A stretch of DNA of 61,658 nt, the filler included, from Hausera hauseri (Eukaryota): NCBI GenBank assembly GCA_046269625.1. It is 11 parts of 11 records of this genome, joined end to end, with 100 filler letters (N's around TTAATTAATTAA, not from the genome) between each part and the next. Parts side by side here need not be neighbours in the genome. Positions count along the whole stretch, not along the records: positions 19,347 to 27,703 come from JBJURY010673217.1; 10 more parts are not named here. One strand, 5' to 3'. Of the stretch, positions 19,583-27,023 are shown piece by piece; within the stretch, counting starts at the first letter, position 1; each line of letters starts with the position of its first letter. Both the position numbers and the translations under genes were made by a program. The notes under the pieces were generated by a model, which saw only the letters and a program-made list of their open reading frames with translations, was not told where the DNA came from and made no database searches.

Positions 19583-20821
19583 TCTGGCATCTTTCTTCTT
19601 TTGTGCTTTGAGGGCTTGGTCTTGTTGGTTCCTCCAGGCATGGGTGGCAAATCTTCTCAGTTCTTTGATTCTGGGTTGATCATCCCAGCCCACAAATGAT
19701 CGTTTCAGTTCATTTGCAATAGGGGTTTGAAGTCCATCTAGGTAGGCTTGACCTAGAAAAGATTCAAACACTGTGATGGGTTCAACGTTCATCCAGTCTC
19801 CACCTGGGTCAGTGATACCAGAATGGGTTTTGAAAACCTCAAGGAGTCTAATCATGTAGTTAACTTGGATATTCATCTGGTTTCTGCTTGCAGAGGTGAA
19901 AACAGGTGTTGAAGAGTCAGAGCTGGAACCTGGTCTTTTGGCTGGAACAAAGGCGTATTTTCCATCAGGAGTGTCTGAGATCTGCAGGTCACCAAGGTCT
20001 TTTTTGACTTTGTCCAGATCAGCCTTGTCTAGGCCTCTCAGTCTTTCTCCTCTCTGCCACTGTGCAGTCATCAGGGAACCTGGTGAGAAGCCTGTAGAGA
20101 CGCTTGGAACCAGAGGCACAACAGGAATGGCATGAGCTCCCAGCAGTGGTGGGGACTGATGTGCTGGCTGTTGCACAGCTGGAGCTGGCTGCTGTTGTTG
20201 CTGGTTCGGGGGTTGTTGGTTCTGAAGCGGCGCAGAGACATAGTTGTCATCCATGGTTGGAGCAAACGGATTGAGCTGTCCTGGGTAAGGTGGAGGCAGG
20301 GGTGGATACAGACTCGGTGGGGCCGTTGGATGCAACGGTCCAGAACCAGAACCAGACGGTGTCGGTGCATGCGGAAAAAGAGAAATTGGATCAATAGTTG
20401 TGTCACACAATTTTTCAGTTTCCTCTGATTTTTCTTTTTCTTTATCCTCTTTCTTTTGATTTCTTTGTAACATTGTGATTGTTTTATTCTTCTCTTTTCC
20501 TGCCTGTTCAATAGCTTTTCTTTTCCAAAGATCAAAAACATCCGCCTGACTTTTCATTGCTACTAACATATCCCTAGATATGATGCTTCTTCTCATTAAT
20601 TCCTCCTGTTGCTGCATCAACTGCTCTTCCAATTGCCTTATTTGTTCCAAGTCCAGAGTGCCATTTTTTGGAAATCCAAATTTGTCATGCCATTGTGGGA
20701 TGTATTGCACTGCATATGAACCATAAATTCTAATCATCAAATCAACTTCCGGACCTATAGGTACATATTGTTTTTTATCTTTTTTATTTTTATCTTTCCC
20801 CTTAGCGAACGTTCCTCCCAT
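19583..20821 (-). CDS. gag: ERV gag N-terminal part (MA, late domains, partial CA)
   Basis: MGGTFAK myristoylation-type start; W..KFGFPKNGTL matrix motif; PTAP/LYPPL/PPPY; YMIRLLEVFKTHSG. Homology ends at QKKKDAR, and the ORF runs on into flank to 19481. Confidence 0.85.
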
Positions 20822-21367
20822 TTCTATTTTATTTTTTGATTTTATTTATTTTTCTGGTTCTCTTTTATTATGTTCCTTAAGTTATTTGATCAGAATAACT
20901 ATCTCGGTTATTATAAATAACCTACACTCGGCCACTAATTTGGTTGGCCTACCCTCAGCTTCTTAATTTAATTCAATTATTAAGATAGCCTACTTAGATT
21001 GTAAATTGAACAATCTAACTCGGTATTCTATTTTATCACTGATTTAATAGAATCCTACCTCGGACTGAAATCATTAAAAATGTTTTCAGACCTACACTCA
21101 GATTATTTTAAAAATAATCCTACTTGAGAACCTTTTTTCTTCAACATGAATATTTGTATTTTTTATTTATTTTTACCTTAATGATGTCAGAAGTTTGTTC
21201 TTTCCCTCAGTCAGCCTTTCTGTCTCGTTGTGGTTGATCCCTTCAGTGAACACCAGCAGAGTCCCCCTTCTCCTGACAGGCCTGTGGAGGTTGGAGGAGA
21301 ACAGCCGTCGGCTGAGCGGTGATCAGTCCTTCTCCTGGTGTCCTCTGAATGGATGTTCCAGCTAGAG

Positions 21368-21385
21368 ATCCTGTTCGTGACGCCA
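21368..21385 (-). promoter_or_regulatory. Primer-binding site, tRNA-Ser(CGA)
   Basis: TGGCGTCACGAACAGGAT, 3 nt after the LTR CA end; complementary to the vertebrate tRNA-Ser(CGA) 3' end ATCCTGTTCGTGACG-CCA as recalled. Confidence 0.85.
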
Positions 21386-21388
21386 AAT

Positions 21389-21979
21389 TGTCGGTTCAAA
21401 ATCATTAGTTGATTTTCAGTCAGGCTGCTGAGAGTCAAAATGTCAAAGAACAAACACTTTATTGAAACATTTTGCAAAATGGAGGAGCACACACAAACAA
21501 ATGTTAGTGGGTTTTCCTAACAAGAAAGAAGGATGCATCCTGTCTTATACACTTCTCCGACTGGAGGTGTGTCTTATGCAAATATTCTAAGTAGTTTCCA
21601 GTTTCTTAGATGTGATAGGCTAGCTAGTTTTTCACTCCTCCTACAACTTATCTAAATACCAAGTTTGTCCCTAAATTGACCTGTTGTTAAGACAAAGCTT
21701 AACTTTTGGTTCTCACTGAGGTGTGACAAAAGTAGATGTTTGCTGGTTTCTCTTTGATCTAACTCTGAGTCTCGTGGGACAGGATAGGGAAGGAGGTTCG
21801 CGTCCCCCACTTATCTATGAGGAGTCATAAAACAGCAGGATACCAAAGCATCTGGCTTCCCCTGTCCTGACAAGAGAAAACAATTGGCACGGCCTTCTGT
21901 GCCGTCCTTATACAAGTTAATTAGATGCTTGTGATGTCAGGAACGTCAGGGAGTGGAAAGAAGTGATTTTAATTCTACA
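21389..21979 (-). repeat. ERV LTR (591 bp)
   Basis: TGTAG...CGACA termini; preceded by PPT AAAAGGGAGGAAT; TATAAG at ~21544-21549; AATAAA at 21458-21463; followed by PBS. Confidence 0.92.
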
Positions 21980-25714: not shown

Positions 25715-25720
25715 CTGTAG

Positions 25721-26689
25721 TCAGTTATTGTCATCAATCACTTCTTTGATTGGCATAGCACATACTCTGACATTGTGTAGGGCTTCTCTGTACATTTTCA
25801 GAGAAGGAGAGTAACAAACTTGGTCTGAGTGCCACACCCAGTCATCTGCATCATAAGCTGCAAGAGCGAGCGGGCCCAAAGACTTCCATTTGTCTGCAGG
25901 GTGCTTTGTCAGAGAAATGTGTGGATGAGAATTAGGAACTGTGAATAATTCAGATTGAGTTCCATGCAACATCACAAGGAGAAAACAGGTTTCATCTCTC
26001 CAGCAGATGTGAGTGACGTGGAGCAGCACAGCAGCTGTTCTTAAAAACATGTCTCCCAACTCATCTGCCGGATCATTTGAAACTCTGGCAGTACAGTGCA
26101 GTCTGTCAAATTCCATAATTTCAGCAGTGGGTGGTACTTTGTCTCTGGCTTTTTGGCCCAAAAAATCCAGTTGTCTATCATTACACAACCATTCAAAAAT
26201 GAACAACAAATTTGGAATTGCACACAAAAGCAGAGCTTCAGGGGGTTGTTTGGACACCCTGAGACCAGATGGTGTGCATGTGATTTGGAGAAACAGTTTT
26301 AAAATCAGATCCCTGGCCAGTAGATTTACTGGACAGTGGTCAGACAGCAGAAATTGATGCTGTATAATTTGAACATTAAACGGGTCCAGGACTGGCAAAT
26401 TGTCAGTCACCGGTTCAGGTACAGACTTTCCTGAGGCACCCACAGAGTGAACTGTGCGCCCAGACAGAGGTGCTGCAGGCAGATCTCTTTTTCTGATAAG
26501 AGACTGTGTAGCCCCTGAGTCGACTAAAAATGACAGAGGAACACCCAAAACTGTGACTATGAGTGTTGGTAATTTCTTGTATGCTTCTAAATGATAATGA
26601 AGATATGTGGACACATGTTCTGAATCAGCTGTGTGTGTGTGGTTACTTGCGGTTTGCTGGTCCCCAGACCATCGCACCAAGGGCCCCAG
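25721..26689 (-). CDS. pro: ERV aspartic protease + 2H phosphoesterase (CNPase-like) domain
   Basis: FLVDSGA...CPVNLLARD protease, followed by ~160 aa with LHCTA and PHISL (two HxT/S motifs) and WKSLGP. Confidence 0.85.
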   Translation of the reverse strand: MGPLVRWSGDQQTASNHTHTADSEHVSTYLHYHLEAYKKLPTLIVTVLGVPLSFLVDSGATQSLIRKRDLPAAPLSGRTVHSVGASGKSVPEPVTDNLPVLDPFNVQIIQHQFLLSDHCPVNLLARDLILKLFLQITCTPSGLRVSKQPPEALLLCAIPNLLFIFEWLCNDRQLDFLGQKARDKVPPTAEIMEFDRLHCTARVSNDPADELGDMFLRTAAVLLHVTHICWRDETCFLLVMLHGTQSELFTVPNSHPHISLTKHPADKWKSLGPLALAAYDADDWVWHSDQVCYSPSLKMYREALHNVRVCAMPIKEVIDDNN

Positions 26690-27022
26690 TCAGCTCGAGT
26701 ATCCCCCCTGCTGGTTGAAACCACCTTGAGGACTGAAGTCTCGGCCGCGGAAAGCAAACCCTCTTCCGCGTCGGTCTCCTTTTGGACCTCTGTGATTAGA
26801 GTTCTGTCCTTGAGGCCTATACGCTCGGCCTCTAGGCTGAAATCCTCCTCTCTGGTCCTTCTTTTGTGGACAATCTCTAGCCCAGTGATTTGGATCACCA
26901 CAGATGAAACATGAATCTCTTTTCCACTGATCTTGTGGTTGAGCCTGAGGTTGGAAAGAAGATGCTGCAGCTTGGAGCAGTGTTAGCTGGACAGCGTCGT
27001 TTCTGGCATCTTTTTTCTTTTG
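26690..27022 (-). CDS. gag: ERV gag C-terminal part (NC zinc knuckle), not in ORF track
   Basis: QKKKDARNDAVQLTLLQ...CFICGDPNHWARDC...RG-rich tail...GGYSS-TGA, in frame with pro. Confidence 0.88.
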   Translation of the reverse strand, partial: QKKKDARNDAVQLTLLQAAASSFQPQAQPQDQWKRDSCFICGDPNHWARDCPQKKDQRGGFQPRGRAYRPQGQNSNHRGPKGDRRGRGFAFRGRDFSPQGGFNQQGGYSS

Positions 27023-27023
27023 T

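What the first reader, a model, noticed from the sequence alone, without database searches (positions are those of the whole stretch)
19583..27023. Circularly permuted provirus with a single central LTR
Seen: the element starts in mid-gag (QKKKDAR...CCHC), runs through pro-pol, PPT, LTR and PBS, and ends in gag exactly at QKKKDAR. The 22-bp sequence is duplicated at 19583-19604 and 27002-27023 with one synonymous mismatch, and rejoining the ends restores one gag frame. Known: 1-LTR circles are by-products of reverse transcription and normally do not integrate. Inference: a 1-LTR circle opened within gag and inserted by an integrase-independent route, next to a truncated LTR of a sister family.
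Basis: partly seen in the sequence, partly recalled or inferred. Interest (0 to 1): 0.72.

Follow-up and report, generated by a model that had tools for sequence, protein, structure and literature searches.

The report
Possibly permuted fish endogenous retrovirus
A defective fish retrovirus copy appears with its two halves swapped around a single terminal repeat, which could record a rare insertion of a circular viral DNA but could almost as well come from short-read assembly fusing the two repeats of an ordinary interrupted copy.

Summary
The layout is as described. An env-less teleost class I (epsilon-like) ERV on the minus strand runs gag-3', pro, pol, PPT, one 591-bp LTR, PBS, gag-5', with a 21/22-bp gag duplication at its ends. 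Contigs of three related runs cross the opening point, so family copies have a contiguous gag. (1) The window is 11 separate contigs of a mixed short-read assembly; the element's contig is 8.4 kb with 236 and 680 bp of flank, and its LTR is 7-25 times deeper than the interior in four relatives, so the link across the LTR is probably not read-spanned. (2) An ordinary two-LTR provirus broken in gag with a 22-bp target duplication gives the same contig once its LTRs collapse. (3) The copy is defective in gag, and the flanks are not two halves of one target site. Against the simplest artefact, the duplication is not the assembly's 77-bp overlap and the left flank is no recognisable transposon end. 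No listed contig bridges either junction. I put a real permuted locus at about 57% (circle captured at a break 38%) and an assembly join at about 43%.

The parts
19347..19582 (.). Left flank, 236 bp, unidentified low-copy DNA; ends at the contig end
   Evidence: No depth in X3 and X4, some in X1; no tblastn hit from 183 fetched proteins, no tail at its inner end; holds neither the LINE's upstream sequence nor the sister LTR's continuation
19583..19604 (-). Left copy of the 22-bp gag duplication (end of the gag 5' half)
   Evidence: 21/22 match to 27002-27023; 0 of 200 shuffles
19583..20821 (-). gag 5' half: matrix-like and proline-rich regions, capsid C-terminal part; capsid N-terminal part missing (deletion at 19893/19894) and a one-base indel near 19860
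   Evidence: 63 relatives at E<=0.001, best 41% identity; alignments skip the capsid N-terminal segment; records of 4 of 4 runs leave the window at 19893
20822..21367 (-). Leader between PBS and gag
   Evidence: Sequence; deeper than the coding interior in X1-X4
21368..21385 (-). Primer-binding site, 3 nt after the LTR end
   Evidence: match to a serine tRNA 3' end is recalled, not tested
21389..21979 (-). Single central LTR, 591 bp, TG...CA, AATAAA at 21463-21458
   Evidence: 6.9-24.9 times the interior depth in four runs
21981..21992 (-). Polypurine tract
21993..22531 (-). 3' non-coding region; no env
   Evidence: No minus-strand ORF of 60 aa or more lies within it; relative L001 has a 646-aa ORF at this place
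22532..25720 (-). pol, 1062-aa open frame: RT, RNase H, integrase
   Evidence: Pfam; best relatives 61-63% identical, named ones at the top from teleosts; nearest solved proteins are p80 RT/RNase H chains
25721..26689 (-). Protease plus a spacer with two H-x-T/S motifs; ends in an in-frame UGA (25723-25721) followed by CUA
   Evidence: PF00077; motifs also in some relatives; stop shared by records of X1 and X2
26690..27023 (-). gag 3' half with CCHC knuckle, ending in UGA in frame with the protease
27002..27023 (-). Right copy of the 22-bp duplication; starts with a purine run on the sense strand; 2-bp overlap (27022-27023) with the sister LTR
   Evidence: loose ends at 27022 and joint 21646-27022
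27024..27586 (-). 5' part of a related LTR subtype, cut inside; its outer TG end abuts the LINE
   Evidence: Local matches of 86-88% to the central LTR, alignment score 108 vs shuffle maximum 63; other runs continue it past 27022
27587..27703 (+). Fragment of a LINE-type RNase H, multi-copy; ends at the contig end
   Evidence: PF00075 weak hit, E 0.0075; deep in all four runs and continued upstream by loose ends; LINE label is inference from the motif

Best explanation
A real, single, defective copy that was inserted from a circular template. A 1-LTR circle of this ERV (made by reverse transcription, or excised by LTR-LTR recombination when a solo LTR formed) was opened in gag by a staggered break or by copying slightly more than one round, which left 22 bp of gag at both ends. 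It was joined by host break repair into a chromosome break inside a related LTR, with a 2-bp overlap on that side and loss of target DNA on the other. Shown: the order in the contig, the duplication, the internal and normal LTR ends, the 2-bp overlap, non-adjacent flanks. Inferred: that the contig is one molecule, the circle, the opening and the repair route.
For: Ends overlap by 22 bp on a 7.4-kb unit; two independent cuts would fall this close about 0.6% of the time. The 22 bp belongs to gag, not to the sister LTR, which continues otherwise in other runs. It is not the assembler's overlap, which is 77 bp and exact elsewhere in the window. The copy has its own lesions (deletion at 19893, 0.5-1.1% differences over the listed records that I summed), as expected of one locus and not of a consensus. 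The left flank has no depth in X3 and X4 while the LINE fragment is deep, and it has no tail, so the flanks do not look like the two ends of a nested LINE. 1-LTR circles are a main product in a germline (PMC12951756, passages); integrase-independent insertions lack LTR end processing and often delete target DNA (PMC5423482, passages) and favour pre-existing related elements in yeast (PMC11042837, passages); insertion through a circular intermediate is reported in tilapia (PMC3245284, passages).
Against: No listed record bridges either junction or spans the element (1689 pieces and 5 joints were not shown). The contig is 8357 bp with 236 and 680 bp of flank, from a mixed short-read assembly. 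The LTR is a deep repeat and longer than a short read. The same window holds a contig with a transposon cut in two and swapped around a 77-bp overlap, so this assembly does emit permuted elements. The model needs three rare things together: an opened circle, a target deletion, and a target inside a same-family LTR with no use of the LTR homology at the junction. Circles integrate less well than linear DNA (PMC5423482) and rarely did so in Drosophila testes (PMC12951756).
Confidence: 0.38

Rival explanations
1. An ordinary two-LTR provirus was interrupted in gag by an insertion or a rearrangement breakpoint, with the 22 bp as the target-site duplication of a staggered break. The short-read assembler collapsed its two identical LTRs and joined pol to gag through them. 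The permutation is then not real.
For: It yields the same four junctions and differs only in what lies across the LTR (inference from the layout). Short-read assembly with a 77-bp overlap and N gaps; LTR 7-25 times deeper than the interior, and leader deeper than coding regions; a permuted mariner in the same window. It explains without a deletion why the flanks do not fit each other. The duplication starts A-rich on the sense strand, as LINE endonuclease targets do (preference recalled). A permuted LTR-element scaffold in a rotifer assembly was read as not chromosomal (PMC5408684, passage).
Against: The common form, a nested transposon, does not fit: one end lies inside an LTR, the other has no tail, no match and no depth in two runs. 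With a single internal copy, an assembler has no clear reason to pick the PBS exit over the host exits of the LTR (own knowledge of de Bruijn assemblers). A same-family LTR at the junction is unexplained here too.
Confidence: 0.28
2. The contig is a chimera of two separately truncated copies: one provirus deleted from inside its 5' LTR (the sister LTR) to gag, another cut in gag on its 3' side, joined through shared 3' region and LTR; or one junction is a library chimera.
For: Explains the neighbouring same-family LTR with its clean outer end and 2-bp overlap as a plain internal deletion. Mosaic LTR subtypes exist in the runs (joints 27540-21905 and 21646-27022). Both cuts lie at a purine run that might be a hotspot; a random cut starts at such a run about 0.7% of the time.
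Against: Needs two cuts within 22 bp (about 0.6%) and a path from one copy's pol into another subtype's LTR. An intact copy in the sample should have left the gag bridge and broken or unrolled the contig (inference).
Confidence: 0.15
3. One aberrant reverse-transcription product. A plus strand begun in a sister-type LTR jumped after about 565 nt to gag on a co-packaged template (2-bp overlap), ran through pol and the LTR, made the normal PBS transfer, and stalled 22 nt into displacement of its own start. Integrase joined the sister LTR's outer end to the LINE; the other end was repaired with a deletion.
For: One process accounts for the sister LTR, its clean TG end at 27586, the 2-bp overlap, the permutation and the 22-bp redundancy. 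LTR subtypes share their ends, so co-packaging is plausible.
Against: Several rare steps in a row; the left flank is not the LINE's upstream part, so a one-ended integration with deletion is needed; no read evidence.
Confidence: 0.12
4. A head-to-tail concatemer (rolling-circle copies or a tandem sharing LTRs) with the same two outer junctions, collapsed to one unit by the assembler.
For: Tandems with shared LTRs are common (PMC11899658, PMC5932611, PMC11042837; passages). A loop of this shape cannot be counted without depth.
Against: Still needs both outer cuts within 22 bp; loop resolution usually unrolls a covered loop (own knowledge). Source reads were not available to measure depth.
Confidence: 0.07

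Closest known systems
Teleost class I (epsilon-like) endogenous retroviruses, e.g. the ZFERV / SSSV type with a UGA gag-pro junction (PMC13517186, passages)
   Same: gag with CCHC knuckle, in-frame stop, pro-pol with MLV-type integrase C-terminus; pol 61-63% identical to teleost ERV proteins; UGA at the gag end.
   Different: No env; second in-frame UGA before RT; capsid deletion; permuted order with one LTR in this contig. No named virus was aligned, so genus placement is by features only.
1-LTR circles of retroviruses and LTR retrotransposons (PMC12951756, PMC4751563, PMC5423482; passages)
   Same: One LTR with PPT on one side and PBS on the other, whole interior present once.
   Different: Here the unit is open in gag and joined to flanks. 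The passages I read describe circles as episomes or propose re-entry by recombination at an LTR, which would restore the normal order.
Integrase-independent insertion of Tf1 cDNA at pre-existing elements (PMC11042837, passages)
   Same: No integrase processing of the element's LTR; insertion beside a related element; single LTR between internal sequences.
   Different: Tf1 events use PBS/PPT/LTR homology and give full tandems; this junction has 2 bp of overlap in gag and no second unit.
Duplication through a circular DNA intermediate (Nile tilapia vasa, PMC3245284, passages)
   Same: A-B order inserted as B-A in a fish genome.
   Different: That case is a 28-kb host segment proven on BAC clones; this is a retroviral unit known from one short-read contig.
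Permuted LTR-element scaffold in Adineta vaga (PMC5408684, passage)
   Same: Circularly permuted LTR element seen in an assembly.
   Different: Read there as assembled from an extrachromosomal circle; here there are flanks and a non-exact 22-bp overlap.

Membership tests
Class I (gamma/epsilon-like) ERV | RT-RNase H-integrase order with MLV-type sequences | tested here: met
   RVT_1, RNase_H, rve, MLVIN_C; best solved matches p80 RT/RNase H at E 1e-136, far above Pr125Pol and Ty3
Class I (gamma/epsilon-like) ERV | gag and pro in one frame, separated by a stop after the zinc knuckle | tested here: met
   UGA at 26692-26690, protease frame follows; readthrough itself not tested
Class I (gamma/epsilon-like) ERV | RT tree placement with epsilonretroviruses | not tested
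   No tree with named viruses was built; top named relatives are teleost ERV proteins
Canonical integrase-made provirus | Two LTRs at the ends with a 4-6 bp host duplication | tested here: not met
   One internal LTR in the contig, ends in gag; holds only if the contig is right
Inserted 1-LTR circle | PPT-LTR-PBS junction with the whole interior once | tested here: met
   ends are neighbours in 3 of 4 runs
Inserted 1-LTR circle | Both sides of the LTR on one chromosomal molecule | not testable with these tools
   No genome held; only contigs could be laid and no listed piece spans the LTR
Inserted 1-LTR circle | Flanks that join into one empty site | tested here: not met
   Left flank continues neither the sister LTR nor the LINE; a target deletion must be assumed
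Provirus with a nested LINE insertion | Insert ends in a LINE 3' end with a tail, as deep as the LINE body | tested here: not met
   Left flank has no tail and no depth in X3 and X4, where the LINE fragment is deep
De Bruijn cycle artefact | Exact terminal overlap of k bases at the contig ends, no flanks | tested here: not met
   Overlap is 22 bp with a mismatch and has flanks; the window's cycle contig has an exact 77-bp overlap
LTR-collapse misjoin | Repeat deeper than its neighbours and longer than reads or inserts | tested here: inconclusive
   Depth ratio 6.9-24.9 in four relatives; read length, insert size and depth of the source are unknown

The most novel reading that the evidence does not exclude
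The contig is one chromosomal molecule, and it preserves a germline insertion of a whole circular retroviral DNA opened in gag at a purine run, perhaps at a plus-strand flap or as a reverse-transcription product that went once round its circular intermediate. Such one-LTR copies cannot decay to solo LTRs, would be missed by two-LTR finders, and could be counted genome-wide to measure how often retroviral circles re-enter the germline.
Probability: 0.5. Interest if true: 0.58.

Novelty: new variant of a known kind. Interest (0 to 1): 0.33.

Why it matters
1-LTR circles are usually treated as dead ends that protect the germline. A proven, heritable, permuted vertebrate ERV would show that they do re-enter chromosomes without integrase, and would give a searchable signature (one internal LTR, ends overlapping by a few bases). 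My ten paper searches listed no such case in a vertebrate germline, but the library lacks most subscription papers and older retrovirology. If the contig is a misjoin, this is an ordinary defective fish ERV and a useful warning: a broken provirus with a target-site duplication mimics circle insertion in short-read assemblies.

Tried and rejected
No whole genome is held, so other copies, the empty site and host ends of LTRs could not be searched. The run search listed 13 holders from 13 studies, best share 0.77, none complete; no RNA holder listed. I laid 4 of the 13; only contigs were available and the tables were cut, so uncovered places prove nothing. Idea that the sister LTR is split by the element and resumes in the left flank: rejected (alignment reached by 272 of 1000 shuffles; other runs continue the LTR differently; pattern absent). 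Idea of a crossover at 22 bp shared with the sister LTR: rejected, the overlap is 2 bp. Idea that the 22 bp is the assembler's overlap: rejected. A weak inverted match between the left flank and the element's 3' region (E 0.12; 0 of 60 mononucleotide shuffles) is AT-rich and taken as chance. Word-based protein search with the gag 5' half found nothing among 4037 candidates; the full scan did. The LINE fragment found no protein relative among 10 candidates, so its clade is unknown. Viral contigs gave no relative of pol and no match to an LTR-end pattern. Metagenome contigs gave 8 loci; the two near-whole close ones, L001 and L002 (62-63% pol identity), are in normal gag-pol order and not permuted. 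Rfam: one chance-level match. Earlier-finding look-ups by place and by pol sequence were empty, as were two word searches; the left-flank look-up gave one unrelated note sharing 3 of 64 words. Supplements of papers were not opened.
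Full report
Setting. The window is not one stretch of chromosome. It is 11 pieces of 4.0-8.4 kb separated by N-TTAATTAATTAA-N spacers. The finding lies on the piece 19347-27703 (8357 bp), with 236 bp of flank on the left and 680 bp on the right. This piece has a CpG observed/expected ratio of 0.33; the other ten lie at 0.74-1.10 and carry gypsy, mariner, TFIIB, tubulin and kinase-PARP sequences. So this looks like a vertebrate contig in a mixed assembly. One piece (36779-43192) has an exact 77-bp terminal repeat and another has internal N gaps. 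An exact 77-bp overlap is what a de Bruijn assembler with k = 77 leaves on a cycle, typically with 150-bp reads (own knowledge). That piece starts in the 3' half of a mariner transposase and ends in its 5' half: a permuted transposon in the same assembly. No whole genome is held.

The observation. On the minus strand the contig reads: LINE-type RNase H fragment (27703-27587, coded on +), related LTR (27586 to about 27022), gag 3' part with zinc knuckle (27023-26690), protease region (26689-25721), pol (25720-22532), 540 bp without env, PPT (21992-21981), LTR (21979-21389), PBS (21385-21368), leader, gag from 20821 to 19583, left flank. The ends share 21 of 22 bases, in frame, with a synonymous mismatch; 0 of 200 shuffles of the contig held such a pair. 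Of 28 gag relatives with hits at E<1e-6, 12 hit both halves, in continuing order.

What it is. Pol is a 1062-aa open frame with RT, RNase H, integrase and the MLV-type integrase C-terminus. It has 279 relatives at E<=1e-100 among 7999 scored; the best are 61-63% identical and the top named ones come from flatfish, bream, goby, stickleback and sea bass. The nearest solved chains are p80 RT/RNase H proteins. With an in-frame UGA after the knuckle, this is an env-less teleost class I, epsilon-like ERV; a review lists UGA at this junction in SSSV and a zebrafish ERV (PMC13517186, passages). The family is young: 13 runs of 13 studies hold part of it, and the window differs by 0.5-1.1% from the 7 longest-fitting listed records of each of the 4 runs laid (I left out 4 of the 32 listed rows, three of them gapped or diverged and one a short piece).

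What other samples show. Contigs of X2, X3 and X4 join 27014 to 19596 with at least 255 letters on each side, so their copies have a contiguous gag; X1 shows no such joint in the list. Records of all four runs stop fitting at 19893 and run on for 38-418 letters, and relatives have about 120-150 residues of capsid that the window lacks: this copy has an internal gag deletion, plus a one-base indel near 19860, so the open gag frame is not an intact gene. The sister LTR normally continues past 27022 into the part it shares with the central LTR, so the 22 bp belongs to gag alone and the right junction has 2 bp of overlap. The LINE continues upstream of 27587 with sequence that the left flank does not hold, and the LTR's continuation is not in the window either: the flanks are not two halves of one site. 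The LTR is 6.9-24.9 times deeper than the interior. The left flank has no depth in X3 and X4, a small remainder in X2 and an unexplained remainder in X1 (445 of 617 depth-bases in the first bin). No listed record bridges either junction or spans the LTR; 1689 pieces and 5 joints were not shown, so this is no evidence of absence.

The central problem. The contig holds four junctions: left flank to gag, sister LTR to gag, PPT to LTR, LTR to PBS. An opened 1-LTR circle inserted in a chromosome gives these four. So does an ordinary provirus, host-LTR-gag5'-[22 bp]-insert-[22 bp]-gag3'-pol-LTR-host, once its two identical LTRs are collapsed and the host exits are dropped. The two differ only in what lies across 591 bp of a deep repeat, which short reads cannot span.

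Weighing. For a real permuted locus: the overlap is not the 77-bp assembly overlap; the copy has lesions of its own, as one locus would; the commonest form of the rival, a nested LINE, fails because the left flank has no tail, no protein match and no depth where the LINE is deep; and with one internal copy an assembler has little reason to prefer the PBS exit (own knowledge). Two independent cuts within 22 bp would occur about 0.6% of the time. Against: no junction is confirmed outside this contig; a target deletion must be assumed; and a same-family LTR right at the junction is a second coincidence. That coincidence is natural if the sister LTR is the 5' LTR of a deleted provirus (chimera rival) or part of the same reverse-transcription product (single-cDNA rival), and only loosely natural under circle capture, through the known bias of integrase-independent insertion for related elements (PMC11042837, passages). 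The duplication begins at one of 10 distinct purine runs of 12 nt or more (about 0.7% by chance); this fits a PPT-like plus-strand start and a LINE-endonuclease-like target equally, so it does not decide. My odds, which are judgement: circle captured at a break 0.38, single aberrant cDNA 0.12, collapsed concatemer 0.07 (real permuted locus, 0.57 in all); LTR collapse of an interrupted provirus 0.28; chimera of two truncated copies 0.15.

Comparison with what is known. I read passages only, found by term search, of PMC5408684, PMC12951756, PMC3245284, PMC5423482, PMC13517186, PMC5932611, PMC11899658, PMC11042837 and PMC4751563; other papers were seen as search listings. 1-LTR circles arise by reverse transcription or LTR-LTR recombination and are abundant but rarely integrate; integrase-independent insertions occur at breaks with deletions; tandems sharing an LTR are common; swapped order through a circular intermediate is reported for a tilapia gene; a permuted LTR-element scaffold was read as an extrachromosomal circle. 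Each ingredient is known. Ten searches listed no germline vertebrate ERV in this form, within a library that lacks most subscription papers. Two earlier scan notes on plant gypsy clades with permuted ends concern family-wide traits and are unchecked; here the family is normal in three runs, so this is a one-off event at most.

Side finding. A second in-frame UGA lies between the protease region and RT, followed by CUA, the context listed for alphavirus readthrough. Records of X1 and X2 cover it with their single difference elsewhere, so they share it; X3 and X4 cannot be told. The 123 nt from this stop fold better than all 200 shuffles (z -3.15), those from the gag stop do not (z +1.36). Of 97 pol relatives with hits (120 tested), 61 run through this position without a stop and 15 begin within 40 residues after it. 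It may be a family-wide inactivating change or a second programmed readthrough; not resolved.

Verdict. The layout is real in the contig; whether it is real in the fish is close to even. If real, it is a new variant of a known kind: one defective copy that would show a retroviral circle entering the germline. Interest 0.33 as it stands, about 0.58 if long reads confirm it.

Noticed in passing
window 25601-25723 (-): Second in-frame UGA, followed by CUA and a stable stem (z -3.15), between the protease region and RT; shared by X1 and X2 records. Either a family-wide defect or a second programmed readthrough (gag-UGA-pro-UGA-pol).
   Followed up: partly
window 25780-26200 (-): Spacer of about 190 aa between protease and RT with two H-x-T/S motifs, also in some relatives; resembles a 2H phosphoesterase domain (label recalled, not tested).
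   Followed up: partly
window 36779-43192: AT-rich contig with an intronless TFIIB gene and a mariner cut in two and swapped around an exact 77-bp terminal overlap; either an assembly cycle between two direct mariner copies, a tandem unit or a real circle.
   Followed up: partly
window 19860-19894: The capsid deletion and the one-base indel lie about 30 bp apart and together leave the gag frame open; chance or selection on a shortened Gag is not resolved.
   Followed up: partly
window 21389-21979 and 27022-27586: The LTR family has mosaic subtypes that share the 5' end and the 3' part but differ in the middle of U3 (joints 27540-21905 and 21646-27022).
   Followed up: partly
window 20742-21299 and 22137-22415: In X2 the leader and 3' non-coding region are 2-3 times deeper than the coding interior, which suggests non-autonomous derivatives.
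   Followed up: no
window 43857-46217 (-): Intronless 786-aa frame with a protein kinase domain and a PARP catalytic domain.
   Followed up: no
window 5261-6109 (-): Uninterrupted frame covering NUP210 Ig-like domains 2-4 directly upstream of a gypsy-like element on the same strand.
   Followed up: no
window 13720-14298 (-): Single-frame MATH-domain protein on a contig that also holds a degraded LTR-retrotransposon fragment.
   Followed up: no
window 27804-36678: A 36-bp tandem array, a long GTGA-type microsatellite with N gaps, and a 175/351-bp satellite array.
   Followed up: no
L001 528-8346; L002 961-7353: Related ERVs in normal order with long gag and pro-pol frames; L001 has a 646-aa frame after pol, while L002 has only 163 aa with the same start and nearly the same end, so L002 looks internally deleted there.
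   Followed up: no
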